Source: Tubulanus polymorphus (lineage: Eukaryota; Animalia; Nemertea). Taken from it: DNA of 64,000 nt. The stretch lies in the NCBI RefSeq assembly GCF_964204645.1, contig NC_134025.1, forward strand, positions 21,303,101-21,367,100, given 5' to 3'. The translations under genes and the position numbers were made by a program. The notes under the pieces are model-generated. The model saw only the letters and a program-made list of their open reading frames with translations, did no database searches and was not told the origin of the DNA. This document shows, piece by piece, positions 211 to 51,300 of this stretch (its first letter is position 1; every line of letters begins with the position of its first letter).

Positions 211-3200
211 GTCGGTAATGCGGATGATGATAGAAATTTTACTTGTTTTCTTTATTTTTGATTTGTTTGAATACTTTTAAGTGTTTTATGCCATTTGTTT
301 TGTTCCACCTTAACTATTCAACTTTCTGCGCCCTCTGTGGAGTTTAGCACGAGGTAACCTCGCTTCAATCACTGGCATTTATTGACTGGCACTAATTATC
401 GATAGTGCATGGCGTCAAAAAGAAATATCTTCTTCCCTAGTTCAGTGGGATAAGGCGTGATACTGTTGCATTCACAACTATCAGCTTTGAAAGAATGATA
501 AATAAGTTTAAGTTCTGCTTACTGCTTACAATGTATGGGCAACACTTCAAAAGCAATCTTGTCGTTAGGTTAAATGAACAATCCAATAGACAATAGAGTT
601 GGTCTTAGGAAACCAAGATCCTAACCACGTAAAGCGAGATAAATGAAAAAGAAATGAATGAAATAAAATCGCATGGATTTGAACTTTATGGAATTTGGAA
701 TTCATAATTGGCTGGAATATCATATTCAGATGGTTGAATAATGATTTCGCCAATCATTCATTGATATACGTGTTATGTATTGATGTACAAGTTGTAGACT
801 ATCTAAAATGCTTTATGAATATCCACAGCAAGGTCTTGCATATATCACGTAAGATGACACACTTCGAAAAACAAGTCTTAATCGAAATCTATTATTCGTG
901 TGGATTCGGTTACATGAAAATACTGATGCAATCATTCAATACATCGATTAAAGATTTTACGTAATCAGTGCAAATATTTTGACTATCTAAATGGTTATGG
1001 ACCCTTTTACAAAATATGAACGCTTTCCTATTATTGCCTACTCCGATCGGATCGTTAGGCAGTCATGTTTAAACGAAGAGACTATTGATCCAATATCTAG
1101 TTGACAATATACATCATATGGGATTTCGGAGGCAGCTATCTTTTATGGCTGATCTGTATATTCACTGTGAATTGTTATGTACGTGTTGTGTTTCGTTGTG
1201 TTTAGTTGGATGATCTGAGGAATCTGGTGCGTGGCGATTTGAGTAAGATGCATCGTTTGATTCTGTCTGCCTTAATCGTTGTCGAAGTCCACGCTCGTGA
1301 TGTGATCGTGAAAATGTTACAAGAGGATGTGAAATCGGTCAATGATTTTGAGTGGATAAGTCAGTTACGGTGAGCTGGGTGCATTTTTCGATCCTTTGCT
1401 ATGATAAACCCACTTCTGAAAGTTCGGAAATGAGTTGATGTAGTTATCGAATTCAGATCTAATGATTCATCAACCTAAAATTTTGTACCAGATAAGAGAA
1501 CTTGAATAATTTCATACTGGATATAACAAACCAACTACGTATAACAAACAGATTTTCTGGTTTTTTTAAGGTCGTTGTAAAATGGTTCCAGTCAATGTAT
1601 GTTTTAAATATCATGTATTTGTAGTTATTATTGGGTTGACGATGATTTGTACACAAGAGCTGTCAATGCAGAATTTTTGTATGGTTATGAATACCTCGGA
1701 AACAATGGACGCCTCGTCATAACCCCTCTGACGGATCGATGTTACCTTACGCTCACCGGTGCGCTTCATTTGAAATTCGGCGGCGCCCCAGCCGGACCGG
1801 CCGGTACCGGGAAAACGGAAACTACGAAAGATTTGGCAAAAGCCTTAGCCGTACAGTGCGTAGTGTTCAATTGTTCTGATCAGCTCGATTACATGGCTAT
1901 GGGTAAATTCTTCAAAGGTTTAGCAAGGTAAGTTATCTACATGAAATATACAGTCCTTGTTGGAAAGAGCTAAATGTCGATTGATTTGTATGACCATATA
2001 AATACAATATTCTCGATGAATGAAATGATAATCCAATATATGTACAAATTTTAATGGCCAGACTTAGGCAACGCAAGAAGGAATGTGGAGAACATTTTTC
2101 TGTAGACAAGTGGGATTTTATATCTATGTTATGTTGATATTTCAGTGCTGGAGCTTGGGCTTGTTTCGATGAGTTTAATCGTATTGACATTGAGGTGTTA
2201 TCTGTAGTCGCTATGCAGATTACGACAATCCAAAAAGCCCAACAGCAAAGGGTGAGAAGAGTTTACGTCTACGCGTAGTATGCATAGATTTCAGCACCCA
2301 CTCGCACCTTTCCTAATCTAATATAGATCGCAGTCTTTCTTTTGCTTTTCAGCTGGCTATGAACTTTCATTATCAGAAACCTGTAACTTATTCACTTTAC
2401 CGGTACATCTTAGAATAAACTTTTTCGCTTTGTTTATGTTTGAAACACCAATCCACTGGCGTTTTGGGAAGATACTGAACACAATTGAAATGCGAACCCT
2501 ACATCGGTGCCACAACATTGAAACTTGCGATGTGTATTAACTAGTTAATAAACACGAATGCGATGCGCTCAACATGCAAACAATGTGCAATTTACGTCAA
2601 GTTTATTCTAAGCTGTACCGTATAAACTGGGTCCAGTTTTGCATGAGTTTGAGATCTTTATTAATTTGTCACTTGCAACCGATTCAAAATTTATAGAATT
2701 TTAGCACTTTTATGAAACTGTAACTTAATTAAAACTTGATGAGCCATATGTCACTTTCTGTAGATCTTAGATATTTTTGAAAGCTGTAATAATGTACTTT
2801 TAATGCTTCAACTGCTATATTGTTTATCCATATTTTCCACAAGTTTCCAAAAATATTACAATAAAGATATGGCATAAGTGTTTTATTTCCAACAAAAACA
2901 ATACAGTTGTTGAAACACTCTAATCCATGTCAACTGTAAATAAAGGAAAAAGTTCCTCAATAAACAACTTTTCCTCAACTTTTTTTATCCGATAAAATTT
3001 ATTGAAACCAAACCACAACATTTCAGCTATAGACTATTAGCCATTCCCCTGATGATGGCTGTTGGTTAGTCAACAGCTGAAACGTTGTTTTATTTCGATT
3101 CATTTTATTGGATAGAAAATTCCTAATGTGGGACATTTTCATTTAAAAACAGTAAAACTGTGTCAGTGCTGAAGCATCAGAAGTAACATGGTCAATGGTC

Positions 3201-6200
3201 ATATCTAGACATTAGCAGACTTTTCCAGAAAAATCATCTGGTACCAGTATGGTATATGAAATCTTTCTTTGACCTCTGTCTTCAGTGGTTGGGAACTATT
3301 TCTATACTTGGCAGTCAATTTATGTTAAGCAGGTGCCGTGACTATATATTCTAACTCTTAATTAATCCATTCTTTAAACTCCTTTAATGATGTAGACAAC
3401 TTGCATGTATTGTACATACTTTTTCATAACGATAATTCAGTCATTATCGGTTTTATTTGATCGGGTAATCAAAATCTGTCATCTCTTGTTGATATCCCTT
3501 AATGCAATTACATGATGTCAGAGCTATATCTCGTCCCGAAATAGAAGTAAGATGTCACTGCAAGTTGTCTATAGCAACTTGTAGAATCAGTAGATAATGT
3601 ATAGATATAGAGTAGATTTTAATCCCTATAGCTTGATAGACATACTATAGCTAGACCGGACTATTGAGCTATATTTGAGGGTAGTTATGATTTCAAAGTC
3701 AAAATATAAAATCAAACTCAGACTAGTTCATTTTCAACTATTGTTTTTAATGTACTGAGTAGAACAACTCCAAATCATACTGTAGTCAAAGTGCCAGTTG
3801 CTCAAAGGTTGGTTTAAGTTAACCAGTCGATAGTTGATATGGTGCAGTTTTGATTGTCACTAGTCTCTAATCAGGGTATAGTATGTCTACATGATCATTT
3901 AATTTTCACCTCCTTAGCACGATGCACCCTCTAATATTCTAGCTGCGGCGCTTGGGCTTGCTTCGATGAATTCAACCGAATTGATATTGAAGTCTTGTCT
4001 GTAGTAGCTATGCAGATCATGGTTATCACACGTGCTCAATTAGAGAAGGTACAATGTTTATTGACTAATTAATTGAAAATCATCTAACAAATGGAAAAAC
4101 GCTAGACATTTTATCATTCTTATCAGAATGACGACAAAAGTGAATGCTCGAAGCCTTAAAGCCTTAATTGTTATTATTAAAGGGTTGGTTCCTCCTGGCT
4201 GTAGATAAATGCTTCAGATGAAAGATGAGATCGTTCAATAATCAGTATCGATATATCATCTTATTTCAGGCTGATCGTTTCATATTTGAAGGAGTTGAGT
4301 TGTCACTGAAGGCGTCGTGTGCTGTGTTCATCACTATGAATCCCGGTTACGCTGGTCGTACGGAATTACCTGATAATCTAAAGGTACCTTTATCACCAAT
4401 GTTATTCACGGTCACTGTGTGGGGATTGTCCGTGACAATTCGAATTTCTCTAAGAGATCTTATAATTATCTGTTCATTCTAAAAGATTTCTGATCAAAAT
4501 TCAACGCGATAGATAATTTTCAATGCTATTTTGATGAACAAATTCATCTCACTCCCTGATGATGTAACCAACGATGTGGCACCCCAGAGTCAAACCCTCT
4601 AGCAGGGTGGCCGCTTACCTGGAAACAAGGAAAAAGTCAGGAAATTTTCTTTTCCTTAAAAAAGCCAGTCATGGAATTTAGTTAAAAAAAAGCTTATTAT
4701 CGGGGAAAAGTCGGGGAGATTTGTTGAGGTTGCTAGATCACGCATATAATCGAACAGTTTCCATCTATGTATTACATAATTGATTGCATTAATTGATCAG
4801 ATTCTTAGTAGATCAAGTCGGGGAAAACAATGTGCATTTCAGGGAAAAGGGACTAATAGAAATGGCCAACCTGTCTTTTTTAATCTTAAAATAGGGATTT
4901 TCCCTGTTATTTATTTGGCTGGTAAATTTTGTTTGATTTTTTGATTGAGTGTCCCTTACAGACCCACCACACCTGCCGGGAGCGAAACAGGGGGTTTGAT
5001 TTTGAAATCGGAAATCAAAGTACAAATATAGTTGTGTGATCCGCGGTCCAGTTAACAGAATTTTTTTTTTGAAATCGAAGTAGTTGGGGTGAATTTTCTT
5101 GGCTGCCTAATTCAATAAATCGAGATTTTGGAAATAGCATTATTACAAGGTCGAAGATCATTTTGTCCATTTTTAAATTTTTTTGTTCGATTTCTACGTG
5201 TAAATAGTCTGATAGTCTATTGTAGTTATTTCCTCGGGTAGATGTTGATGTAGAAGTCCTCTTAAGTTAACTTACCACTGGTGCCTATACTGTTGCTATA
5301 TATTTTCATTGCTTCTCTGTTCGTTATAGGCATTGTTTCGACCGGTCGCCATGATGGTGCCCGATTACGCTCTGATCGCCGAGATTTCGCTGTTCTCATT
5401 CGGTTTCTCCGACGCGAAGAAACTCGCGAAGAAAATCGTGACGACGTTCCGACTGTCATCGGAACAGCTCAGTTCGCAGGATCATTACGATTTCGGTATG
5501 AGAGCTGTGAAATCGGTAATCTCAGCTGCTGGCAATCTGAAACGACAGAACGCCGATATGAATGAGGTACACTCGCTTCTTTTCACTTACCTTCGAGCGA
5601 CAACATCATTCTACTATGTAAAAAGCCCACAATCAATAGAAAAACTGTTTAAGTCATCAAGAGATACCGGGCTGTTTTGATTCACGGGAATTTAGTTGAA
5701 ACGTTGACTATTGCCGTATAACAGTAACAGTAAATTTAAGTGACAGACTGCTTTGGCGATCTAAACACTGTTTAACAATACACAGTTGTTGAATTAAAGT
5801 GCACATTTGCTGAGGTATCATTAGCGTCTATGTAGTTTTTAGTTAGTTTTCAGTTCATAGTCGTTCCAATAATCGTCCAGCCTAGCCTTGAACGAACTTT
5901 TACAGTTTTTTTCGAAATTGACTGGCAGGAATTGATTTGAAGCATATTCTATTGGTTTTTTACTTTAGAAGATAGACAGTTAATTTTCTATAGAAACCGA
6001 TGTTATCTTCGCTTTAATGATCGTTTGTTTTAGGATCTGATTTGTTTACGAGCCATCAGAGATGTCAATGTTCCGAAATTCTTGATGGATGATTTGAAAC
6101 TTTTCAACGGTATCGTTTCTGATTTGTTCCCCAGCACAAAGTAAGTAACAATATTGGCGCTATCTCTTGAATTAGAAAATACCAGTCAGTTGATGAATTG

Positions 6201-9200
6201 TGACTTAGTTCTTGGACGAGTCAACTTTGTTCTATAACCGATCTAACAATTTGGACTTAGAGTAAGTCATGACTGCAATTGGCCCCCAAAAACGGTAGGA
6301 TTTCATGTTTTTAGATTGGTTATAGGACCAATAAGGCCTAGTCTCTCTCTTGCTCTCAAATCACTGATACATCTAATGTTCTAGAATCTCTACTATTCTC
6401 AATCCTGTCTCTTGAACCAACCAACTCTTGAGTTTCTATGGAACATATACGCATGCATTCATCCAGAAAATATTGATTTCTGTCTGGTTTTTAAGGGAGG
6501 AACCGATCGATTATGGTGATTTGATGACATCTTTGAAGAAATCGTGTTTGAAAGCTGGTTTGAAAGACGTCGATGGCTTCATTCATAAATGCATACAGCT
6601 CTACGAAACGACCGTGGTTCGTCACGGTCTTATGTTGGTCGGACCGACAGGTTCCGGAAAGACAAGGTGTTACGAAGTGCTTCAGAATGCTATGTCCAAC
6701 CTGAAGGGTCAGATGTCGCCGGCAGGAGTACCCTTCGAAATGACGCATACATACGTTCTCAACCCGAAATCGATCACTATGGGTCAGCTTTATGGTGAAT
6801 TCGATGTGCTCACTCACGAATGGTAAATTCTTTTCTAGATTTTGTATGATCTCATTAACCTTACAATCGCTTGAATCTGTGATATCAGTACTCTCAAAGT
6901 AGCATCAAGAATTCCTTGATTTTGCTTTTATAAAACTATGCCCGGGCTTGTCTTCCCACAAGAGAAAATAATTCTTTGACACTAGATGTAGTTACTACTC
7001 AACTGCATCAAGAAAAAAAGTTTTAGAGTTGAACAAATCATAACTAGATATAAAAGATCCATTCTCCTGATTGAAATGGCATTTTATGAATGATTTTATA
7101 TTTTCTTTTTTAAAATTTCATGAAATATCTTTTTCCAGGACTGACGGAATATTGTCGTCTTTGATTCGCGTCGGAGCTGCGTCTAATGACGAGGATAAAA
7201 GATGGTTTTTATTCGATGGACCGGTCGATGCTGTCTGGATCGAGAACATGAATACCGTGTTGGATGACAACAAGAAGCTTTGCCTCAGTTCTGGTGAAAT
7301 TATCAAGCTATCGGATGTGAGTTCTCCATATGACTTGCTTGAGATTCAATCAGAAAATGCGTTATGTTTGATTTTTATCAAGTAAATAGTTGTGAAGAAT
7401 AATTTCTCTAACTGGGCAAATATGAAAATTGTGATTTCTATTCAAAGCTGAGACTGAAATGTAAAAAGATAATGAAATATTGGTGAATGATATTATTTGG
7501 GTTGCTTCAAAACTATTTCAAAATCTAGATCCGAATGCAATGTTAAGGTCTGGTGTATGTTACTATAGCTGCGATCACACAAGCGTTTTTGGCCCGTACG
7601 AGATCAGGCCTGGGATAACGGTTCACACAGGTGCCAAATGGCCCCATGACTGTTCCCCATAACGCGTGCCAGATTTCGTGATTTCATGATAAACCAGCCG
7701 ATATGAAAATTTCATTACAGAATATGACGATGATGTTCGAGGTGCAAGATTTAGCGGTAGCATCTCCGGCTACTGTTAGCCGATGTGGTATGGTATACCT
7801 AGAACCGAGTATTCTAGGTCTGTCGCCGTTCGTTGATTGTTGGATCCGACAACTACCCGATCCTATCTACCTATACAAGGACAAACTTCAAGGTCTTTTC
7901 GATTTCTTCCTCGAGGTAGGTCGGCCGTTCAACTATATATTTCCAAATGGTTTTTGCCTCTGATGTATCAACACGTAAATAGCGCCCTGGGATTAAAGCC
8001 CTCTCCCTCGGGTAAATTTCTGGAAGTCTGGAGACCTTGTCATTATAACTGTATATCAATACTAACTATTATTTGTGCTGCAATAGCTTTATCATGCCAT
8101 TATGATAATTTGATCAGTCATATTGAAAGCAATAGTTAAAAGTATACCAGTATACCTTTGCCGAGTATGAAAATGTACCCTATGATGTTTAATGTCAATT
8201 TGAGGGAGTTTTTGGGAAGTGGGGCAATCATCCTGATATGACTTTAGGTGTATACCATTGGATGCATTGAATCATCATATATTTTGGCAACCACAAATAA
8301 TATACATACAATAAATATCCATATTTTACTGCCGAAATACAGTCCCTTGTTCACTGAATTCAATACTTAACACATTTTCATGGTTTATCTCTTCCGATAC
8401 GTAGGATTCCATAAAGTTTCTCAGAAAGAATATGAAAGAATTTGTGGCATCGATGGACAGCAATTTGACATTCAGTTTGACGAAACTTCTTGATTGCTTC
8501 TTCGCTCCATTTATTCCAAAAGAGGTAACGTTTCTTTCACCAGTTAATCATTTAACATAGATGTTGGTTAATGTTCCCAATGTTTAATAATTTGGGCAGA
8601 TAAAAAAAAATTGTTAGTTTCTTATTTTGGCTGTTTTGCTGAATTATGAATATTTTTTTCATCAAAGTTAACACCTATTAGGTCTATATCCAGTTATCGC
8701 TAAGTGGTGATATCAAAATCATTTTCTGTAGCGAAGGTCATTGTGAACATTGAAAGAAATAGTGAATATTGGGTCAACAAACACGCAGGTTTGCTGCAAA
8801 CCTCTAAGAATCGATTGTTAGAATGAAAACCTTACAGGCATAAATTTGTATCATTGGCCATAGATATAACGTTTTAATAGTATGTTAAAATATCAACAAA
8901 ATCTGTCAAAGTTTGTATTGATTTTTTGGGGCCTAAGTTCTTGTATCCATCCATACCCACTGCTGCGTCTAAAGGAGGATATGGTTGTTGAACAGGCACC
9001 TGCGGTCACTTCGCGAAGCCCATCAAAGACGCCGCGCTCGCAGGGTTTCGATTACGGCGAATTCGACGTGTCCGATTCCGATAACGAAGACGAAATAGAA
9101 ATGAATCGATTTTCAATGAGAGTAAGTCGGCATGAAAAGCTGACAACGCATGAATCACTTCATAATTTCATTCCGCTCACAATGCCATCGTGTGTGGCAG

Positions 9201-12200
9201 GCTTTACATAGCAATTTTCACCATTTATTGTTCGTGAATGGTCAAGAATTTCATTCCGTCTTACAGGTGCTTGAATCTAAACGCCATCAAGATTCTACTA
9301 TCTTTAAACAGGTAGTAGGTATTGTAGTTCTTGATCAGTTCGAATCCTTGCTATATTGAATATTTGAATGTATATGAAAGATCTTCCACATTACATTTAT
9401 ACGATACCTAAATAGGATGAATTTCTTAGTGTATTATTACCTAAAGGTAATTCTTCTTTTCATTTTTAATTCGTCATTTAGAATCTGCATGAATTGTACT
9501 TATTAGAAGTTGTTTGGGTTATACTTCCCTATTGCATCAATCACATTGTCTATAACGACAATAATACAGAAATATTTAGGCTAGAAAATTGCAATTCAAA
9601 GAAATTTTCATCATCCATGTTACATCATTGATCACAAGTTACCAGTTTATGTATTGTTGTTGAAACCAAAAGAGGTACTAGAAAATTTCAAGAATTTTGG
9701 AAACAGGATTCAAAAAGGGAAAGAGTTTATGGTATTAAAAAACCTGGCTAAATAGTGACTTTTGATGAGAAAAACTATTGTTAGAATCACCTGTATTTGG
9801 GTGAAACGGCTGTTATGATACTTTTAACTGGATTTCCTAATCTTATTGCTGTGGTTATTTCTTTACAGAAAATGTCAATGAACATGAAGGTGTGTCTCTT
9901 CTTTTAAGTAGTGAAAAATCTATAGGAAACTTGATGCACTCTGATTTTGTACTTTATCTAGCTAACTATCCGTAGTAGGAATACCTGATTTCTTGCGTCT
10001 TTTAACGTAACTTCTAAAATCGGTATTATCAATTGTTCATTGCTCTACTCTGACGTAATGACGTCTATGCTCGATTGGTTGTGTTGGTTGATTTCTGTAT
10101 GAATTTTTGTGAATGATCTGAAAGATTTTCATTCGATTTCATCTCTTTTCTGAGAACACTCTCTCGTACACAATTTTCTAATCCACAAAGATTGCACTTT
10201 TTTACACTTTTTAAAATAATGAGTACGTTATGAAGGTGACTGCATATGATATTATAGATTTCTCTGAAGGGGTTCTGGAGTTTGTTGGATGTGTTGAGAT
10301 ACTGTCCGAACGTGGAGGCATTTTTCGATAGAAGCATTAGCTTATTCCGATGATACCTGCAGAGCTGCCAACTTTTCCTGATTTTCACTATTTGTTACTA
10401 CTTGATAATGAGAAATACTGATTTGATTTGTTTGATGCGTATAGAAATATGAAAGATGTTGCTGAGGGTCTTACTGTTGATTACTGATTAATTTGAACAT
10501 TTTCTTTCATATTTCAATGAAATGTTACTGAAAAAAATTCAATTTGTTACTGATGAGCATGTACAAATATTTAAAAACAATATCTCGATTACCTATATCT
10601 AGAAGCAATTTGATCAGATACTCGGTGTATTATTTATGAAAATTCTTGTTATCGGAATAAGCTAACGTTGCTTTCCTTTTCCTATCAACTTCACTTGCAA
10701 TTCACAACATAGATTTTCATTTCATAATCTTTTCTGTCTGCTGATAATTTTCCAAATTCGATTGAAAAAATTGTATAACGATGTGGGTCGAGTCTTTGTC
10801 GAAACCTCCAGAGCCCCATATTTTGTATGTTTGTTTACACTTTTGATTGAATTAATGCTGTTTGTCGTTGCACTAATGTCAGGTTCGCAAAGGGCACCAT
10901 GCACATATGTCTGGGGTAAGTATTCACTTGAATTGCTTCCTAGAGAGGTTTCTATGAGCCAGCCAAATCAATTTTGATTAGGCAATAGTAGATTTATCAA
11001 TTTTGGGTAAAACGTTTTAATTGAGTTGGGGGTCAAATTAAGCCAAACCAATTACAGGTATCCATATATACAGTAGACACTACTCAAGTTGGACCTTTTG
11101 GGACCGTAAAAATGTGTCCGACTTGGGAGATATCCGAGTTGGATATTATTCATTTCATATAAAGTGTCCAAAAAAATATTTCAACGATTATCTGAGTTGA
11201 ACAGCTATCTGAGTTGATCGGATCCGACTCGAGTGGAGTCTACTGTAACGGTAAGAGATTTCCCACAAATCATGGTTATACAGCGGGTAAATGTTGCTAT
11301 TGTGTCCGTCAGCCTAATTGGTTGGCTCATATGAACATTGTTGAAACTCGGCAATTATATATACATACCGGTATGCTTTTAAAAAGGTGATATTTATCTC
11401 AATAACTAAATACATATATTAAGATATCGAAATATCGGGTACCTTTATCTTATGATTCCTCTGTTCTGATATGATATACATCATTCCTCTGTTCTAATAT
11501 GATATACATACATTTCTATCTACCATTTCTATCTATGCATCCGTGGATTCACTGATTCATTAGTTCCTTATTCTTAGATCAAATTAAAGAATTGTTTACC
11601 ATATTCTATGTAGACTATGTATCTATCTGAATGATGAAACTAACAGTGAAAATAAAATGTGACCATATTGGAAGACCAAGATTCATAGCGTTCATTGAAT
11701 GTCTTCAGAATGAATTGAATCAGTGAGAGCTTTTGACTTTCCCCAAAATGACAAGTGTCTGAAAGTTTTTGAGGAAAAATGCAAGTATATGACTAAGATT
11801 TCACTGTTGCAACCTAAATGTTGAAACTCTTTGAAAAAAACTTTGGAGAAATTCTTGGGAAGCTGCGTTTACAATACGTGATTTACAACATTCTTAATTT
11901 AGTCTGTTCCAAATTTGAATTAACTAAAGAAGAACAGACCAAGCGATCACACTAGCAAAATTTCCCTTCTAAATTGGTCTGTTCCATCTAAGAACTGACC
12001 AATTTAGACTGTTGCAGGTTTGTTCTGAATTTTAGGATGGACCATTTCGAGTTGGTAAATGAATTGGTTTTAGGATGAACTGTTTCATTTTGAGTTGTGT
12101 CTAGCTGGACCAGTAATAACAAAAGACTTAAAAATGTGTGTGATTGCAATGTGATTGCACAGCATTGATTTGGTCTGTTCTGAATAGTTCTGTCGCAGGT

Positions 12201-15200
12201 ATGGCCCAAATTAGAAGGGATTAACTAGTGATGGTGTGAATTCAGCTTATAAGAATATGAATCCTAGATTATTTTGTCATGAACTGGATACATTTCAAGT
12301 AAATTTTGCAGAAGGTTTTGTCTGGGCTGTATAGTTATTATGGTCCATCATCAATTTGATTTTCGGCACTTTTCATTATCATCTCACAGACGTTGAATGA
12401 GACCTTTTCGTGTTTTGTATCGTTTAGGGGGAGAAGCCGATTCCCGAAGAGCGATTGGCGCGAGTTGTAGAATTAATCGAACCGTGGTTTATATTTTCCT
12501 TGCTCTGGTCGGTTGGGGCCACTTGCGATAACGACAGCCAGCACAAGTTCGACCAATGGTTACGCGAAAAGACCAAAGAATTCGGTGTAAGTTTGCAAAT
12601 AATCTGAAAGTCATCCTACATGAAATCATGTAGTTTGAGTGATTTCCTCAAAAACCCTATAAGTATGTGTTCAAGGGACGATGCTCTGGCTACAGCCACG
12701 TAGGCCTAGCTGTTCTTGTTAAAACATTAAGTATGCACCCACTAGAGCCACATGGTGCTCTAGCTCAGTACCATATACTTCTGCTCTACCATACAGTAGA
12801 ACTCACTTAATTCGGATGACTTGGGACTGGCCAGATTTCTCCAAATTAAATGAGATCCAAATTATGAATAAATAGTTAACATGGTTCCAGGTTAAATGTA
12901 CCAAATATTTCATCCGAATTGAATGAAAATCCGGATTGGAAAATCCAAATTAAGCGAGTTCTACTCGACTAGCTGTATCCTTCAAAGATTCAGCTAAAGA
13001 TTTTGAGAAAGGTGGATTTGGCCGACCGTGACACAGTACACCGTGGCTATAGTGAAACTTGAAAATCTCATGGTATCCAACTAGGGAATTTTGTTGTTAA
13101 ATGAAAAAATGATTTTTCTAGATAAGCCTAGTTTTCCCCGAGGAAGGATCGGTGTACGATTACATGCTAGATGATGGAGGTATCAGTCAACCGGGAAGTG
13201 ATGATGATGAGGAGGATGAAAACAAGGAGGAAAAACCTGTAAGTATTTGAGATCGAATCATCATTGTCATTTCTACCTGATATTGAAAACATTAGGTTTT
13301 TCATTCATGGTGTTGCTTGTTTTTTTTAGGTTTGTTGGGTTAATTGGATGGCAAATCTGCCTAAATTTGTCATTCCGCCTGAAACTAGATATTCTGATAT
13401 CATCGTTCCAACTATGGATACGGTCAGAATGACCAAGCTGATTCAAATGTTGTTGTCGAACAATAAAACTGTAAGTACCCTTTTGAACTTGCATTTTTTA
13501 TGCTATTGAAATGCCCTTTCGACAGGAAATATGCCCAATTTCAGGACGTTTTCCAGATCATTCGACAAAATTATGCCATTTTACCTATAGAAAGTGTCCC
13601 TTTCAGATTTTTTGTCCCCATGAATATTTGCATGTTCTTACCATGCGTACACAAAGCTCCCGCTCGGAATCAATTATATCCAGCGAGGAACTGGTGAACT
13701 TCACGATTTAGGGGAATAAAGGTTGCAAAAATTATGATTCTCTGTTTACAGGTTTTATCTATCGGACCTACTGGTACCGGTAAAACATTAGCGATATCCG
13801 ACATGCTGACGAAGGTTATGGCTAAGGAATACATTCCGGAGTTCATTTCGTTTTCGGCGAAGACAAGCGCCAACCAAACTCAGGATTTGATAGATGGTAA
13901 ACTTGACAAAAGGTAATTCGTACATACGTAAAAATAGAGAATATTACTCAGTCTAGGAAACCAATCCTGAAATTAAGATTATAAGATATCAACATCAACA
14001 CTGTTCTTTTTGGTATTTTACCAGACGTAAGGGTGTTTTCGGTCCTCCGCTTGGCAAGTATTTCATATTTTTTGTCGATGACTTGAACATGCCGGCGTTA
14101 GAAATTTACGGAGCGCAACCTCCGATTGAGTTGATACGTCAGTGGATGGACTTCAAGGGATGGTATGATCGTAAAATGATAGGTATGTACGAGTAGATAC
14201 AGTAGAGGTATTGTTAAATCCATACAGTAACTGGCAGCGCAAAGGATGTACAAATTTCACCTATTAGAGTCAAACTAACCTAACACTGTAGAACTAATTT
14301 TTTCGGAAAATGAAATATTCTCAGATCTGAGAAAAAATATTCATACCAAATCAGGGGCAGTGCTAGGAAAATTGGAAGGCTGGGGTCCAGGAGAATAAAA
14401 ATGCATTTCTTGGATAAAGCAGCCAAGTCAAAGGCCTCTATTGGGGTTTTCGCGTGGTTCTGCCCTCGGTTTTAGATATTTGTGAAGAAATACATCCGGA
14501 AGGTTGCAATTTCCGTGAGGATGAGCGCCAAAGACTGCCATTTGATTGTACATATTGGTCCCTGATTTGATAGTTTAAATTCAATGTTTTGTTCCATATC
14601 AAAAAATTAATTGAACTGCCGGAGCAAGTTTTAATAAGCTAATTACCCAATTAATTGCTCTGATTAATTTGTCTATTGCCGAGCTCTGAGTTGAGAATCA
14701 TAGCTAATTGGGTAGTCATCAATTGAGGTAATTAGTGACAAGTTGTCAGATGAAGAGATACCCCTGGCCAAACAGACACTGTGTCACTTGTCAAACTAAT
14801 AGCTATAAAATCTAGGCACGATTTCCAACCAGTATCAAATTGATTCACAGCAACTGAGAACAAACAACATGGATTACGAAACTGCCGTTGAAAGCTTCTT
14901 CGAAATCGAAAAACGCTTTCGAGCTGCGTGCTCGAAAATCATCGTCATCGACGAGAAACTATCGCGCCTCGACATTCAACTGAACAGAGCCGAGAACGAC
15001 GTTCACTGTCCGCGTTCAAACCTCATCAATCGCAAAATACAGATCTCGACGCTCGAAGGAGTACGGTTCGTCTATTATGAATACGCGCGCAGAAAAGCAG
15101 CCGAAATGAACAAACTTCGAGAGATTTGTTTTATCGCCGAGCAACGACAACAACAGCAGATGTCTCTGGATGAAGATTATTGATTATTTCAGCAGCAGCA

Positions 15201-18200
15201 GTCGTCACTGGATGCAGATTATTGATCATTTCAACAGAAGGTCCTTTTCAGGACCCCCTAAAACTACCAGTTAGACCCAGTCTACACTTACTCTGCTTAA
15301 ACCAATATTTGTGTCAAATTTATTCACCAGACATCCTTTCTGAAGGAATATGCTTGTATTGAACTATTGTAGAAAACCTCAATGAACTCTTTAATACCGA
15401 CAAATAATCTTTTGAACTAATTGATTTTAAGCCCCCTTGGTGGAAGGCCATTCGGGCTTATACCGCACCCCTGGGTCTTAGTGGTGGTCTGGCGTGCATC
15501 CGTCCATGCGTGAGGTATCTTGTGAACACTACAGACCACAATTTTTGACCCATCCGAATTCGGATGTATTGTGTATGACCAAAAACATCTCGGATCAGTT
15601 CAATTTCGATATTTGTGGTAATCAGATCCAAGATTGCTGACTGGTGTTAATCTTTGATTCTGAAAATATACATTTTGGATGACCTATCATATGACCAGAC
15701 TAGGTCATGATATCATCCAAGATGGCCGATTGTGACTTCACTTAGCACCTGACCAAGCAGGCTTAGATACATTCACATCTAGTTGTGAATTAGCTGGGTG
15801 AAAAAAAATACGTAGACTGAAAAATACGTATATCAAAGCTGGGATTGTTGCACATTAGTTGTGATATTCAGAGAGTGGACGGTTAACATCTTTCAAGAGA
15901 TAACTCATTACAGATATCTCATCGATATTTCTTGAAATTTGTAGGTGAATTCCGTCATCTGGTTGATGTGAATTTCATTTGCGCCATGGGACCACCGGGT
16001 GGTGGTAGGAACCCAGTAACATCTCGATTGACGCGACATTTCAACTATCTGGCATTCACCGAAATGGAAGATCACAGCAAGAAAAGAATCTTTGGAACAA
16101 TTCTTGACTGGTGGATAGGTAGGTAACTGGTCCAAAAATGGCCTTACAATACAAGCCTGGAAGAATTTGTTCGATTGAATAGCGAAAAGAGCTATAACCT
16201 ACCCTTCTCAAATCTAAATCTAGTTCACAAATTTTCAACCAATTTAAACATTATTTACAGTTGATATGTAGCTACGTAAAAAATGATACATCGATTATTG
16301 TGTAATGTGTTTGTTTTTTTAACGACCAGTTTCAAAGCGCTCCTATCAAGTGGCTGAAGGTGAAAAATCACTAATTTGCATGAATGATTTCTGTGATTTA
16401 CTTAGTACTTTTTACTCAATCACTTTCATGCATGCAGAAGTTGTTGCTTAACCATTATGTCACAGATCGTCATTTTATAACCAAAAAAAGCAACCTTATC
16501 TACTATAGCAATTTCAATTGTAAGATGGCCTTATTATCATCAGATAATCAATAAGTAGCATTCTAAATGTCACTTGTGTAGTTCAGGTATCCCTGAAAAT
16601 GGTACAGTGTTCCCAACGTTCAAATGCACCCAACACCTGTATTATTACAGTAATTTATCCCCAGCCTATATCTTTGAGTATGACTGGAGAAGTGGCATCC
16701 AAGCTACATACCCAGTACAGTACAGTGCAGTACACCAGTAGTTGCTTTTCACCAGATGCCCAATTACTCCTCAGTAGGGCATCAAGGATACTACATTGCT
16801 GTACCCCCATTATCTGACATCCCAGGTTCAAATTCTCTGACCAAACATAAATCATTATTTGCCATAATCGAATTATACCACATATTCATCCTTATGTTCA
16901 TGTTTAAATTTTCACGCTCTTTTTCCCGAGATGCATTTGAAACACATGTATTAGATTGCTAATTGAAAAAATTCTTCAATTTCTGATTTTCAGAAACTGC
17001 AAAAAATATCAAGGAATACAGCAGCCAGCTTGTGGAAACGTGTGCAACTGTATACAACTCCATTACAACTCAACTACTGCCCACTCCAGCGAAGAGCCAT
17101 TACACTTTCAACTTGAGAGATCTGTCAAAGATCTTCCAGGGAATCTTGATGGCTGATCCTTCAAAAATGGAGGTAAGACATCCACTAATTTTGAGGCCAA
17201 TTGCTCAAAAGCTAATTGAATTCTTGATGAGTGGTTTGAAATTCTAGAAGCTAATCAGCAGTCCGCTGACTTAGGATTTGCAGAACCCTGATTTTCAGAT
17301 TGAATAGTGCCCGGAAATTAATGGCTGCCCCTGATTGAGCTGTCATTCATGGTTATCGTAACATTGATTGAATATTGAACCTGAATGTGTGTCCATCTTA
17401 TGTCCCTGGGCCTGACCCACAACTGATACTTTGGGACTGTGGAGACTATGCTCTTGAATGAGATCGGACCCTATGGTAGAAAATATACGAAGTTTGTTTC
17501 TACATGTGTACTTAAACTATTTCCTTCTTGTATCAGAGTTTTCGCATTCATCCAACTTGGCAACTCTTAATGCTGTAAGGGAGTGAAACAAGTCTTAGAT
17601 ATTGAAATAGGAAATCAGTATGTAGAAGATCGAATTAGCAGAATTTCTTGGCCAACCCTTGGATTAATACAACTTTTCTTTATTGAACAACCGCTTCGCT
17701 GAGCCTAAAATTCACACGATTTGAATCTCAAGTTTTTACTGAGGAACCACACCTTAGTACCCATGTTTATACATGTACATTGTAGTCTATCATGCTACTT
17801 GTTTATGTACCTCAAGGCACTAAATTTTCCACTCTTTTCAGACTTTGAATGATCTGCTGAGACTCTGGTACCACGAAAGTTGTCGAGTGTTCCAGGATCG
17901 TCTGGTCAACGAGGAGGATAGACAGTGGTTTCACGAGCTGTTGAAAGACCGAATGAAACAAGACTTCCAAGTCGAATACGAGAATGTCGCGACACTGGAA
18001 CCGGTGTTGTACGGAGACTTCATGCAAGTCAGTGTGGATAACAAAGTCTATATGGAAATCACGGATCACACTCAGGTATTTGTATGAAAATGTGTGAAAT
18101 TCATGCGGTGATATAATTCTGCAGCCCGGACCTACCCTTAAAAGCCTAGCGCATATAGAAAGAAATAAATGAATTGGAAACGCCACATATTGACACTACA

Positions 18201-45234: not shown

Positions 45235-45339
45235 ATGGATTTCTACGGTACGGATAGAAAGCTTTCCGAGCTCGGCGAGAGCGATTTCAACGACCTACTC
45301 GACCACGATATGTTCGACGGCACATTCGGTGCACTACCG
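45235..45339 (+). CDS. CREB3L1: CREB3L exon 1
   Basis: [23 protein letters not shown]...|gtaagt. Confidence 0.85.
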
Positions 45340-48300
45340 GTAAGTTACAATACAATATACAATACTTACAGCGGTACTGCCGCTGGTAAATTGAAGTAAA
45401 ATTTATTTTCTACCAGATGTCCAGTGGTGGGTCGAATTTTCGGGGCTCCAAACATGAATTGGTCTTGGCGCAACATTTAAATAGCTTGACAGCTTGTTGG
45501 TATTCATAATGACATCGAAATCTGGGGTATGGGGGTTAGGAACTAATGAAATAAACCTACTAATCAACTAATGTTGTGGTCCTTTGATGAAACTTTTGAG
45601 CCGCAACCCCTCAGCTAGTCTACCCCTCAGCCAAATGAGGGGTGTTTGAACTGTAGCGACTGCAGCGGCCAAAGTCGCAGCAATAATTTACTAGATGATG
45701 TTATTTTTTCTTCCAATACCGCGATTTTAATGAAATTGAAGTAAATACCCCGCAGTAAAATATTGGCGATTGACTGCAGCGATAAAAAATTGCTTCCAAC
45801 GCGCTTGCAAACTGGCAACTCTTCGCTTCGAAGACTTATTATTTTTATTTCAGTTTCCCGTCTCATTTTGTCTGGGCTTCTATCATATTAATCAACCATC
45901 TGGGAATGCTTGATTCACTTCTCAAATGAAGTATCACTCGTACAATTATAGTTACCAGTATTTCATTCAGTGCTTCGGAGGTTGGGGGCGACTGATCAAC
46001 AATTAACATCTATTCAATCTTGGGAATATCAATTTCAGTGTAAATTTCAGGTTTAGATATTTAGATATATAATTGGGTCTGACGTGGCATGTTATTAAGC
46101 GTGTTAATTAATGAAAAACAAATTGGGAATAGTAATTGATTCAATGATGAATTGAAAAAGATATTCTCGCGCTAGAAAAGTTCAAAAACCAGTGACAGCG
46201 TCAAACAAAAGGCTTTCAGATTTCACTCAATGTACAATAAGGACACACATCCCTGGTTTAGGCATGGACTCTTAGAATTGAAACGATTTAGAGTCCATGA
46301 TAGGCAACTATGATCAACAATATGAAAACATTGCCCGCAGTCCAAATCAATGATATTATTCGATCCTTGGAACGCTCCTGAGGCCTTAGAGGGGGTCTAT
46401 TAATAGTGTATTGCGCAGGCATTAATTCCTATTTGGCGCTGAATGTGAATTTTTCAGCGTGCACTGCATTTTTTTGTGTGCTAGGTGAAGGAATATGTCA
46501 GCTGTTTTCGATAAAAGATCGACCTAAATGATTGTGGAAACTGGATTTTGAACCGTGACCTGCCACAACAACGTAATTTCACATGGCAACATTTACTATC
46601 TAAAGTACCATTGTCACGATAGCCTATTCAATGGTTATATCGTAATAACGTATATTGAGATGTGGGTACCAGTTCGGGCACGTGTGGGGGATTCATTTTA
46701 TCTGTTACAATGAAGCGCGCGGGTACCAGTATTTAGAAGTCCAGTTTTAATCATGGAAATCCATTATTGTGATGACTTACACGCTCCGAGCATGTTTTTA
46801 CGTGAATAGACTTTTACCTTCCTAGCAGTAAACAAGGAAGGTATCTGCATTATTAATAGTTCTTCATGACAATTGAGTTTCAAGCTAGGCTTTCAATTAG
46901 GCTAATGCCTGGTGCGGACCCACGCTGTATTTTGGAATACAGTCAACGTTTTCAGAGTACTCATCAAAAACAATTTTTGAAGTAATTTTGGTGCAAAACT
47001 TGCTCAGAATGGCTTGTAATCCGTAATGACTTCACCTCCAGTGCTCACCTTCGAATGGCATGGGCACAAGTTTTGCCCTTTTCATCCCTCAAAGGTGCCA
47101 TTTTATTACTGGAATACTGTGAGTAGCTGGCTCTGGATCTGCCCCTTGACATTTTTTTACTCCAGGCCCCTGTTTCAACTGTTTAATTTCTAATCATTTA
47201 AAGGAATGCAAGTTTATGTTAAGTTTGGTGCGTACTTCGGTATGTTAACCCAAACAAAGGGAATATTTTGGTTTAATTGCTTTATGGTTACTTCATAGTT
47301 TCAATCAGTGAGGACAAAACAATCCAAACTTTTTAAACCATAAGACTGATCCTTTTCCTGACACTGGACTCTGGACATTTTTATTTTGGTGAATATGAAT
47401 TCTCTTATTTTGTCCAGTGGTGGATCCTGGCTGGAAGAAACTGGGGGGTTGTTCAAAAGGGCACTTTTTAGTCATGGCGGGTGTTCCTGTTTGCTAGGGG
47501 TAAAACTTAGGTATTAAAAAGCAAGGTATATTTTATATACGCATTTAGTGCATATTAGATCAGTACAGGGGATAAGAAGCCTATATCAAGTGGATTTTCA
47601 AAAGAGCACTCGCACAGAAAAGGGGGAGTTTGAACCCCCTGAACCCCCTTCTGGGTCAACCACTGCTCTCATACATAATGATGCCTCATAATGGTCTATA
47701 TTAGAGCATCCCTGCGAACAATGAGCTGCTGGTGTTGAATTTATCCTCTTTTCATTTATGTTTTCAACAAGGCAATGGATGAACAGTACAGCTCCGATTG
47801 TCAAGATTGGTTGGAGAGTTTGTTCGAAGACCCAGTGCTCAATGATAAGATGATGTCAGACGCCCTGCATCCCCCGCAAATCAAGTCCGAACATAGTTAT
47901 TCTCTTAGCAATGATGCGAATGGTCAAGAAAGCAAAACAGAATCCGGAAACAATGGTAAGAATTGAATAACGTATTTTCATCCTAATTGCATTTGGACAA
48001 GCGCTCATGTGGTATTAACAACTGCAGGGGCCAGTTTTATAGACTGGTATTATTCATTCATTCCCCTAAGCAACCAGAGCCATAATAGAGAATCTCTGTT
48101 GACTATGTTTCAAAATGTTGTGCACCTTGGCATCTTTCAGAGCTGCCAAATGTCCCTGAAAATAGATTTAAGGTATTTGGATCAGAATCCTTGAAGAACC
48201 TTCTGTCTCTAACAAAGTTTATTTCTTGTGTCCCTGACTCAAGCCCTGTTTAAAACTCATACCCTGTTACTCGATCAAGACTTTGGTCCGAAAATGGTCA

Positions 48301-51300
48301 TAATCCTAAAACCTGGTCTTAAATTATTTCGATTGGCTATAGAATTAAGCTGGCCCGAGACTGGTCTTAAAGTAAGTTATGTATCATGACTGTGTTATTT
48401 GCCTCTGGTCTTAAACTTATCTTTTCTCTCCTCAGAGATGGACATAGAATACTTGACCGAGACGCCTCAGACGAAGGCGTGCGACTTGTCGAAGAAGACG
48501 TTGGATCAGAAGTCGACGTCGTCGTCCTCGTCGCAGGTGGTTATGATCAAGCAGGAACCGCGTACGGAGATCATCACGACGTCGGCGACGACGGCTACGA
48601 CGATACTGAAACAACCGACGATCGTCCTGACGACGACGACGCAGCCGATATCGACGCAACACCGCATCGGCGTTCAACAACCGGTGACGAAACACGAACG
48701 AATGATCGTGCCGAAATACAGCATCAAGTTGGAGCCGCACGATCTTATCGACTCGATGAGTGATACATCTAGTAAGACACGTTAGATATCTGGATATCGA
48801 GGGGTTCTTCTGGGAGCCTCGAAATTCCCTCGGTTAGGGATTCGAACCTGATGGCATTGCTACACTCAGCCACGGCACAAAACCCTGCCACAGTAGACAG
48901 GGTGCGCAGGTTTACTGCAGGAAAACTTGCGGCACCAATCAGATTGCTCATTGTATAATCGCTGAGAGGCTATAAATGGGAAACCCGGGGCTGAAATAAA
49001 ACGGGATATCTGATTGGCTAAAAATGATTTCATCTAGCTGCGCGCTCGGTTTATCTAGTATGGCAGGGTTTTGTACCATGGCAATCTCGATGCCATCAGG
49101 TTCGAATCCCTGCCTGGGGAGGATGTTCGAAACATTTTGTAAAGAAAAAAAGAAGATTTTTTTTCAACATAGGTGCAATCTATTGTAATTCTGTAAGGGG
49201 GTGAAAAGTGTACTGCAAGTCCACCTTTGTTGTTAACTTGCCCAAGATGTATTTGGTAAGACCCTTCAATCTTGCCCCTCTAGTTCTTTGGCTAGAAAAA
49301 GAAAAAGAAGAAAATTCTGCTAGCCTTGATATACGCCTGCGAGCCTTAATCAAATAAAGTCGGAACAAACTGACGAATTCAGTTGCCCTGTTTGTGCTGA
49401 ATATGGGTGTGGTAGTATTGAATATGCCTCGAAGGGCTTCGATCAATCAGAACCACAATTTCAAAGTTGCTTCGAGCTTTATGCTGCAAGGTTATATGAT
49501 AGTTACTACTGATGTGGGATCAATATAAACTGTCGGCCAAACTGACACATGTGTTTATTGTATTGGATATATAAGCACGTTGAACAACGAACAATAGCGC
49601 ATCAACTGTATTTGATATCTCCGAATCGATGTTTTCTCACAGTAGTTAAAGGTGGGATGGGTCCAGGGATAAGTTGAGACTAAATCGAAAAAAAAAACGG
49701 TTCTTTCTTCCGATAAGCCCCGGGTATGGTATATACGACTAGCGTTTATAAGTTTACGAATCCATAAACAGCTGAACTCGCTTAATTCAGATGATTAGGG
49801 ACTGCCCGGATTAAATGAAATCCGAATTATGAATTCATAGTTTTGATTAAAACATGGTTCTAGGTTAAATGGACCAAATATCCAATCCGAAATTAAATGA
49901 AAATCAGGATTAATTGGGTTCTATTCTCTCTGTGTATAAGTAATTCCTGCTGCCTCTAGTGCCGCTGAAAAGTATTCTGAATTCCTTCACTCATCTCATT
50001 ACATGTACCTAAATAAATGTTTTTCTATTTGTCATTTTGAAGACGACCATGTCAGTTTGCCGCCCACGCCGCCCAGCAGTAATAACAGCAGCGACAGCGA
50101 AGGTGGTCAGAGTCCGCTGAGATCGGCGCCGTCGAGCCCGATACGGCACACGTTAATACCAAACAGGCTTCCTCAGACGACCGTTACCTGTAGAACCTAC
50201 ACATCTCAACCTCTCTTCTCGAGTCCCGTTCGAGTGAGTTCGTTTTCTAGCCTTGTCGGGACTTCCATTTATACGGGAGCATTAGGCACAAATTTTAATG
50301 ATGATAAACAGGTCATATCTCATGACGTGTTTCATAATTGCTGCGGGTTTCAAGGTGATTTGGTAATTTGTGTTCGTTCACTTAGAATTTTTAAATTGCC
50401 AGATTGTCAAGCATTTCACCGAGTGGGCATGGTCTCCCTGGAGCTTCATTTCCTACTATGTTTTCAATCATAGCTGCTGGGTTTAACGTGTGGAGTACCT
50501 GAATCTCTTTTGGGTCTATCTAAGGATGTATACCTCTGAGTCCAATAACTCCGCTGTTTTCCCATTTTTGGAACTAAGCCTATTAATCTAAAACCCAAGC
50601 GGAAAAGCTAGATCGTGAATCGGTGTTCCTTAATTCGACTAACATTATTAAACAGTATCCTAACAATGTCATCCCACATGAAATGAAAATTGTCATCAAT
50701 TTCAACTGACTAGGTCGACGCTTAATGATGGGTTAAATTATTCTGTCCGAACTAGACAAATTTGATAATTTTTCCGACGCGGCTTATTAGCTTGTTAATA
50801 GGTGTGGGGGCTAATAAAACGGTTTCGGTCTGAACATCGGCATAAAGCCAACAACGCCAGAGTGTTTTGAAAAATGTTCAGTCTTTTAAGCACATAATCA
50901 TTATCAGAGCTATTTACACTAGGTGTTACCGGTTTCTGTCTGGACAAATATTTAGCTTTCACCGTATTTGTCGATGTATGAAACGAATGAACCTGACGTT
51001 TACTGATTTTTAGGTCAATTTAAGGGTGGACCTCGAAGTTCGTAAGAGTTGTAGAATTTCAAGCTTTGGCAATGACTGAATGAATTTGGCAAATTCTACC
51101 TGTTGAAATGTATGAAAGATATAGTCGGGTCATAAAATATTTGCACTTTTTTGTGGGGAACTGATTCAAATTATGTCAATTGACACACAATTGACGCTTC
51201 CATACATTATGTTGGACTCCATTCTAGTAGTAAAATTCCTGTACAAGTTTTAGAAACCCACAATAAAATACCCCCCTATGAAATCATTTCATTATAAAAT

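What the first reader, a model, noticed from the sequence alone, without database searches (positions are those of the whole stretch)
8975..9121. 49-aa phospho-rich cassette exon inserted in an AAA2 loop of DNAH1
Seen: a CpG-rich, stop-free 147-nt phase 0-0 segment with a strong AGA|gtaagt donor. It lies between FIPKE and GEKPIPEE, which are contiguous in human DNAH1 as I recall (PFLPREGLKKIP). The peptide has SP/TP sites (SRSPSKTPR) and an acidic CK2-like stretch (SDSDNEDE). TGCTGC lies just upstream of the acceptor, and two GCATG (RBFOX-type) motifs lie at 9130 and 9148 just downstream of the donor. Inference: a regulated, disordered, phosphorylatable insert on the motor ring.
Basis: partly seen in the sequence, partly recalled or inferred. 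Interest (0 to 1): 0.72.

Follow-up and report, generated by a model that had tools for sequence, protein, structure and literature searches.

The report
Optional exon cluster in ciliary dynein
The longest intron of this animal's cilia-motor gene DNAH1 hides four small in-frame exon candidates, and other animals carry small optional or conserved exons at the same spot, so splicing likely lengthens one loop of the motor ring, by up to 82 residues here if all four are used.

Summary
The segment is real sequence and very likely a coding exon (third of 137 intronic open frames for coding bias; the two above lie in one inserted ORF). It sits in the longest intron (3,903 nt; median 428) of a DNAH1 gene, at a coil in the AAA2 lid. 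The site is a splicing hot spot: RefSeq isoforms of the crinoid Anneissia add 8, 3 or 11 residues at exactly this junction, a jellyfish protein adds 12, and an 18-nt microexon is conserved there in nine loci of unnamed animals. Weak point: the acceptor at 8975 scores below all 50 real acceptors, no insert above 12 residues occurs in 134 DNAH1 records, no homologue of the 49-aa peptide was found, and no RNA was available. Best reading: a combinatorial cassette cluster, with the 49-aa exon a weak-acceptor regulated cassette (about 0.55); an alternative first exon is the main rival. Phosphorylation is inferred from motifs only.

The parts
8405..8524 (+). DNAH1 constitutive exon, first half of AAA2 lid, ends phase 0
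   Evidence: Pfam PF17852 positions 12-49
8938..8974 (+). AG-free, C-rich pyrimidine tract with three YCAY, TGCTGC and a weak AAG acceptor
   Evidence: 69% pyrimidine, 38% C, 2 TGC (1 of 50 real acceptors has 2), AG-free zone 37 nt; matrix score -2.9; YCAY
8975..9121 (+). Exon candidate A, 49 aa, Ser/Pro-rich then acidic; alternative in-frame acceptor at 8996 (42 aa); in-frame ATG at 8981
9122..9266 (+). 145-nt intron between A and B with 8 YCAY and 2 GCATG (NOVA- and RBFOX-type motifs, recalled)
   Evidence: reached by 0.9% and 0.6% of 2,114 overlapping background windows; 63 motif-region tests made
9267..9311 (+). Exon candidate B, 45 nt, phase 0-0, 15 aa, basic
   Evidence: acceptor 9.9, donor 7.2; rank 2 of 4,004
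9869..9889 (+). Microexon candidate C, 21 nt, phase 0-0, 7 aa
   Evidence: acceptor 10.3, donor 8.5; rank 1 of 4,004; AG-free zone 84 nt
10883..10915 (+). Microexon candidate D, 33 nt, phase 0-0, 11 aa
   Evidence: acceptor 4.1, donor GGG|gtaagt 9.7; rank 8 of 4,004; coding score negative
12428..12586 (+). DNAH1 constitutive exon, second half of AAA2 lid, starts phase 0
   Evidence: Pfam PF17852 positions 56-97

Best explanation
The longest intron of this DNAH1 gene holds four in-frame exon candidates (147, 45, 21 and 33 nt) that are likely optional cassette exons spliced in combinations into one predicted loop of the motor's AAA2 lid, lengthening it by 0 to 82 residues. Shown: the gene, the site, the open phase-0 frames, the splice scores, and optional or conserved small exons at the same junction in other animals. 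Inferred: default skipping (8524>12428) gives the canonical motor; B and C, with strong sites, are included in some tissues; A has a deliberately weak acceptor (C-rich tract, UGC motifs) and YCAY/GCAUG clusters just downstream, so it would need tissue-specific activators. A would add a disordered Ser/Pro and acidic stretch that kinases could modify, B-D short basic stretches; the changed charge and length of the loop would tune contacts of inner-arm dynein d with its neighbours in particular cilia or sperm. Odds by step: A is a real exon 0.8; B and C are real 0.8, D 0.6; A is an internal cassette, given real, 0.65; regulation by phosphorylation 0.25.
For: Open 50-exon DNAH1 model, intron 3,903 nt against median 428. 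A's coding bias. An unbiased filter for phase-0 stop-free exons returns exactly B, C, D in this intron; C and B rank 1 and 2 of 4,004 forward pairs, best of 4,061 reverse-strand pairs 17.2. Anneissia japonica isoforms X1/X4, X2, X3 add 11, 8, 3 residues at this junction while Antedon adds none; Sanderia adds 12. An 18-nt phase-0 microexon in nine loci: 85% identity against 30-36% in flanks, valid donors of four kinds, a four-fold site with all four bases; a 27-nt one in L022/L028. In 22 homologous introns 17 of 41 strong pairs are phase-0 and stop-free (15 of 22 introns) against 1 of 9 on the reverse strand. L006 has three candidates including an acidic Ser/Pro one of 51 nt, unchanged in L005 (0 of 51 differences against 74 of 1,676). 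Junction lies in coil 469-478 of an AlphaFold model of Bugula DNAH1. Weak 3' sites with UGC are typical of eMIC-regulated exons (PMC8797185 section 10).
Against: No junction read exists for this organism in the runs served. A's acceptor is worse than all 50 real ones, lacks a CUAAY branch point, and A is far longer than the 31-nt median of eMIC exons. No insert above 12 residues in 134 DNAH1 records (mostly vertebrates, one named lophotrochozoan). No homologue of A, B, C or D in proteins or in 62 related loci, and the 18-nt xxxRRx microexon of relatives has no clear counterpart here. B, C, D have flat or negative coding scores. Eight of the 15 positive introns belong to one clade. Five coral-like or other introns show no candidate. 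Motif enrichment was one of 63 tests. The structure model has mean pLDDT 51 (59-88 over most of the lid). Mapped phosphosites of monomeric inner-arm dyneins, oyster DNAH1 included, are mostly N-terminal (10.1101/2025.03.10.642390).
Confidence: 0.55

Rival explanations
1. A is an alternative first exon of an internal promoter: translation starts at ATG 8981, runs through B-D into the rest of DNAH1 and gives a short dynein lacking tail, linker, AAA1 and most of AAA2; B-D may also serve as cassettes.
For: No good acceptor precedes A; coding bias starts at 8975-8981; ATG context has purine at -3 and G at +4; G+C rises from about 8920, as a short 5' UTR would; perfect RFX-type X-boxes (consensus recalled) occur in the homologous introns of L015, L019, L028.
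Against: No perfect X-box or TATA box near A, and X-box counts over all homologous introns (24) barely exceed shuffles (10-23); no named short DNAH1 record starts at this junction; relatives use the site for internal cassettes; L027/L030 leave only about 100 nt before their candidate.
Confidence: 0.2
2. A, B, C, D are exons of a separate small gene nested on the same strand in the dynein intron.
For: ATG-led first exon, ordered chain of exons, long intron; an unchecked note reports another same-strand nested gene in this genome.
Against: All four are multiples of 3 in the host's phase, which a nested gene does not need; no stop-bearing last exon with coding bias and only one AATAAA-type signal (9734) before 10500; no protein homologue; the homologous site holds host cassettes in a crinoid.
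Confidence: 0.08
3. A is not used: a decayed exon or inserted fragment that looks coding, while at most B and C are real.
For: Very weak acceptor, modest donor; no homologue; other frames of A also score positive because of CpG content; another coding-like insert sits in intron 14183-15944.
Against: Frame 0 scores best, ends exactly at a rare GTAAGT in the host phase, is single-copy and is followed by motif clusters.
Confidence: 0.15

Closest known systems
Anneissia japonica DNAH1 RefSeq isoforms X1-X4 (XP_033101980-983)
   Same: Optional, combinatorial small inserts at exactly the same junction of the AAA2 lid.
   Different: 8 and 3 residues, unrelated sequence; database models, not a described system; here up to four pieces and 82 residues.
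eMIC/Srrm4-dependent microexons (PMC8797185, section 10 and two passages read)
   Same: Frame-keeping short exons; A has a very weak 3' site with UGC motifs; C and D have long AG-free zones and one TGC each.
   Different: A is 147 nt; no CUAAY branch point or UCUC tract; B and C have strong acceptors; host is a motile-cilia motor; neural inclusion untested.
Phosphorylated AAA5 loop of outer-arm alpha and IAD-5 heavy chains (10.1101/2025.03.10.642390; abstract, outline and 12 passages read)
   Same: An extended disordered, kinase-modified loop on an axonemal motor ring, about 45 residues.
   Different: Constitutive and in AAA5; the text has no mention of AAA2 or splicing; here the loop would be switched by splicing and phosphorylation is only predicted.
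DYNC2H1 21-nt retinal microexon
   Same: Tissue-restricted microexon in a dynein heavy chain.
   Different: IFT dynein, single conserved exon, other site.

Membership tests
DNAH1 (inner-arm dynein d heavy chain) | Collinear match to DNAH1 proteins through the motor domain, best hits DNAH1 | tested here: met
   no tree was built
Cassette exon of DNAH1 | Keeps host frame, no stop | tested here: met
   A, B, C, D all phase 0-0
Cassette exon of DNAH1 | Usable acceptor and donor | tested here: inconclusive
   Met for B, C, largely D; A acceptor -2.9 (8975) or 3.2 (8996), donor 4.2
Cassette exon of DNAH1 | Both inclusion and skipping junctions in RNA | not testable with these tools
   Only DNA-type contig runs were served
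Cassette exon of DNAH1 | Conserved in relatives | tested here: inconclusive
   Position conserved; sequence not; no close relative available
eMIC-dependent exon | Short (median 31 nt) | tested here: not met
   Not met for A (147 nt); met for C (21) and D (33)
eMIC-dependent exon | Weak 3' site, UGC near it, long AG-free zone, strong CUAAY branch point | tested here: inconclusive
   A: weak site and 2 TGC yes, AG-free zone 37 nt is only the median, no CUAAY
eMIC-dependent exon | Neural inclusion that needs eMIC | not testable with these tools
   No RNA or knockdown data
Phosphorylated dynein ring loop | Phosphopeptides mapped to the loop | not testable with these tools
   Motifs only

The most novel reading that the evidence does not exclude
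One loop of the DNAH1 AAA2 lid is an animal-wide, repeatedly rebuilt splicing socket, and this animal has expanded it into a four-cassette module (up to 16 forms, up to 82 residues) that lets splicing factors and kinases together set the behaviour of one inner-arm motor per cilium type; or exon A starts a tail-less, AAA1-less dynein that binds microtubules without powering them.
Probability: 0.3. Interest if true: 0.72.

Novelty: new variant of a known kind. Interest (0 to 1): 0.5.

Why it matters
How one set of axonemal dynein genes gives different beats in sperm, larval bands and epithelia is open. A defined loop on the motor ring whose length and charge are set by splicing, at the same place in a jellyfish, a crinoid and several other animals, is a concrete handle that RT-PCR, proteomics and loop swaps in Chlamydomonas dynein d can test. 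Gene models built by homology miss these exons. I found no paper describing it; a sea-cucumber study reporting sex-specific DNAH1 isoforms (PMID 36371882) was seen only as a citation in PMC12000136 and may overlap.

Tried and rejected
No whole genome held. RNA: no RNA holder listed; the three runs laid are contigs that cross introns without splice joints, so no evidence either way. Protein searches with the 49-aa peptide: none among 3 candidates; one weak hit (E 7e-4) in a repetitive unrelated protein, rejected; no Pfam family; Atlas not available for this sequence. Minus-strand gene: minus frames over A are broken by stops or score lower. Repeat origin: A is in no repeat family and at single-copy depth, whereas 10360-10555, 11083-11300, 11900-12250 and 12790-12965 are repeats; the strong 12036/12198 sites lie in such a repeat and give stops or frameshifts. 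A as terminal exon read through to the stop at 9209: coding score falls after 9121. Vertebrate isoforms: no insert except one low-quality parrot model. Foldseek only confirmed DNAH1 as top match. Earlier-finding look-ups near this place, in relatives and by the first word set returned nothing. PMID 36371882 not held. No supplements were read; phosphosite tables of the bioRxiv paper could bear on whether AAA2 sites exist.

Full report
Gene and site. The window's first 40 kb encode the motor half of an axonemal dynein heavy chain. The exon after the finding hits DNAH1 proteins, a full-length crinoid DNAH1 aligns collinearly, and hand-refined exons give an open chain with consistent phases (one further exon added and a duplicated one, 50 acceptors in all). 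Intron 8525-12427 is the longest of 49 (3,903 nt, median 428). Its flanking exons match consecutive parts of Pfam PF17852, which in Bugula DNAH1 lies between the AAA_5 and AAA_7 matches; I read this as the AAA2 lid from general knowledge of dynein. In an AlphaFold model of the Bugula protein built on 22 sequences the junction (472/473) falls in a ten-residue coil between helices; the model is poor overall (mean pLDDT 51) and moderate there. Earlier unchecked notes call this genome a ribbon worm; I did not test that.

The observation. The 147-nt frame, the motifs and their coordinates are as stated. A codon-position model trained on the gene's exons against its introns gives 23 bits, in the upper range of real exons, rising from 8975 and levelling off near 9100. 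Of 137 intronic 49-codon open frames on both strands, only two frames of an unrelated ORF at 14809-15183 score as high or higher. CpG richness is ordinary for exons here. The donor has the consensus intron half but a modest matrix score. The acceptor is the weak point: -2.9 bits, below all 50 real acceptors, of which only one ends in AAG. It does have a C-rich pyrimidine tract and two TGC, features reported for eMIC-regulated exons (PMC8797185, section 10 and two passages read), but no CUAAY. An in-frame AG at 8996 scores 3.2, and an ATG at 8981 is in good context, so the exon's left edge is open.

A filter for phase-0, stop-free AG..GT segments with good scores returns exactly three in this intron: 9267-9311, 9869-9889, 10883-10915. 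Ranked among all 4,004 forward pairs of 6-60 nt in the gene's introns they are 2nd, 1st and 8th; the best of 4,061 reverse-strand pairs scores 17.2, between the first two. Their coding scores are flat or negative, which is uninformative at this length. The 145 nt between A and B hold 8 YCAY and 2 GCATG, reached by under 1% of background windows, one of 63 motif-region tests; reading them as NOVA and RBFOX sites is recalled knowledge.

Relatives. Of 158 protein records examined, 134 had both anchors; 128 have no insert, four Anneissia isoforms add 3, 8 or 11 residues at exactly this junction, a Sanderia jellyfish protein adds 12, and one low-quality parrot model adds 7. The Anneissia set shows two independent optional pieces; that RefSeq isoforms rest on RNA reads is my assumption. 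A metagenome scan gave 62 loci; 33 had all or part of the homologous intron, which is often the longest nearby. Nine loci share an 18-nt phase-0 microexon (85% identity against 30-36% in flanks; their flanking exon is 68-84% identical between loci, except one 99% pair), and two share a 27-nt one. In 22 of the 33 introns (11 dropped as duplicates, short or tandem-repeat filled) 17 of 41 strong pairs are phase-0 and stop-free, in 15 introns, against 1 of 9 on the reverse strand; eight of the 15 are one clade. Most of these peptides are basic. L006 carries three candidates, one acidic and Ser/Pro-bearing. None resembles A-D in sequence, and no protein homologue of A was found.

RNA. The only runs served are contigs that cross introns with no splice joints; they decide nothing.

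Mechanism. Most likely the intron is a cluster of optional cassettes for one loop on the motor ring. Skipping gives the canonical motor; inclusion adds basic short pieces and, when activators overcome its weak acceptor, the 49- or 42-residue Ser/Pro and acidic piece. A phosphorylated 45-residue loop on AAA5 of other axonemal dyneins is the nearest functional precedent, but that study places most inner-arm sites, oyster DNAH1 included, near the N-terminus and does not mention AAA2 or splicing (10.1101/2025.03.10.642390; abstract, outline and 12 passages read). The main rival makes A a first exon of a short, tail-less dynein; X-boxes in some relatives' introns hint at intronic regulation, but none lies near A and no named short record starts here.

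Novelty. Microexons in dyneins are a known kind; this site and a multi-cassette array are not described in the papers my searches reached (listings only). Sex-specific DNAH1 isoforms in a sea cucumber are cited in PMC12000136 (passages read); the original was not available. Verdict: new variant of a known kind; the hot spot is well supported, the 49-aa exon's own use is probable but unproven; interest 0.5.

Noticed in passing
window 2146-2251 and 3943-4048 (+); L009 about 1882-1987 and 2330-2432: Two 106-nt copies of the AAA1 Walker-B exon, same phases, different C-terminal residues; also duplicated in L009, single in L031 and L034. Likely mutually exclusive exons in the main ATPase site; possibly as interesting as the finding.
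   Followed up: partly
window 14809-15183 (+): 124-codon intronless ORF with the highest coding score of any intronic frame, inside intron 14183-15944; no Pfam family above cut-off. Probably an inserted or nested small gene.
   Followed up: partly
window 8448: One-base deletion in the DNAH1 exon in one contig of runs X2 and X3 (same sample, patchy coverage), absent from X1; may be a single amplified molecule or a null allele.
   Followed up: no
window 10040-10085: Two TGACG half-sites and a CCAAT box between candidates C and D, promoter-like.
   Followed up: no
L015 intron 968-1736, L019, L028, L006 (intron coordinates): Perfect or near-perfect RFX-type X-boxes in the homologous intron; six spaced about 145-175 nt apart in L015; in L028 the box overlaps the 27-nt microexon candidate.
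   Followed up: partly
P0047, P0064, P0066, P0070, P0016: Other DNAH1 isoform pairs differ by 7-17-residue inserts at two further sites (acidic AAA2-AAA3 linker; after the AAA3 lid start), the latter shared by coral, sea anemone and gar.
   Followed up: no
window 6496: A constitutive DNAH1 exon uses an AAG acceptor, so the AAG at 8974 is not impossible.
   Followed up: yes
window about 45300-50500 (+): Exons of a downstream gene that by recall resembles a CREB3-like bZIP factor.
   Followed up: no
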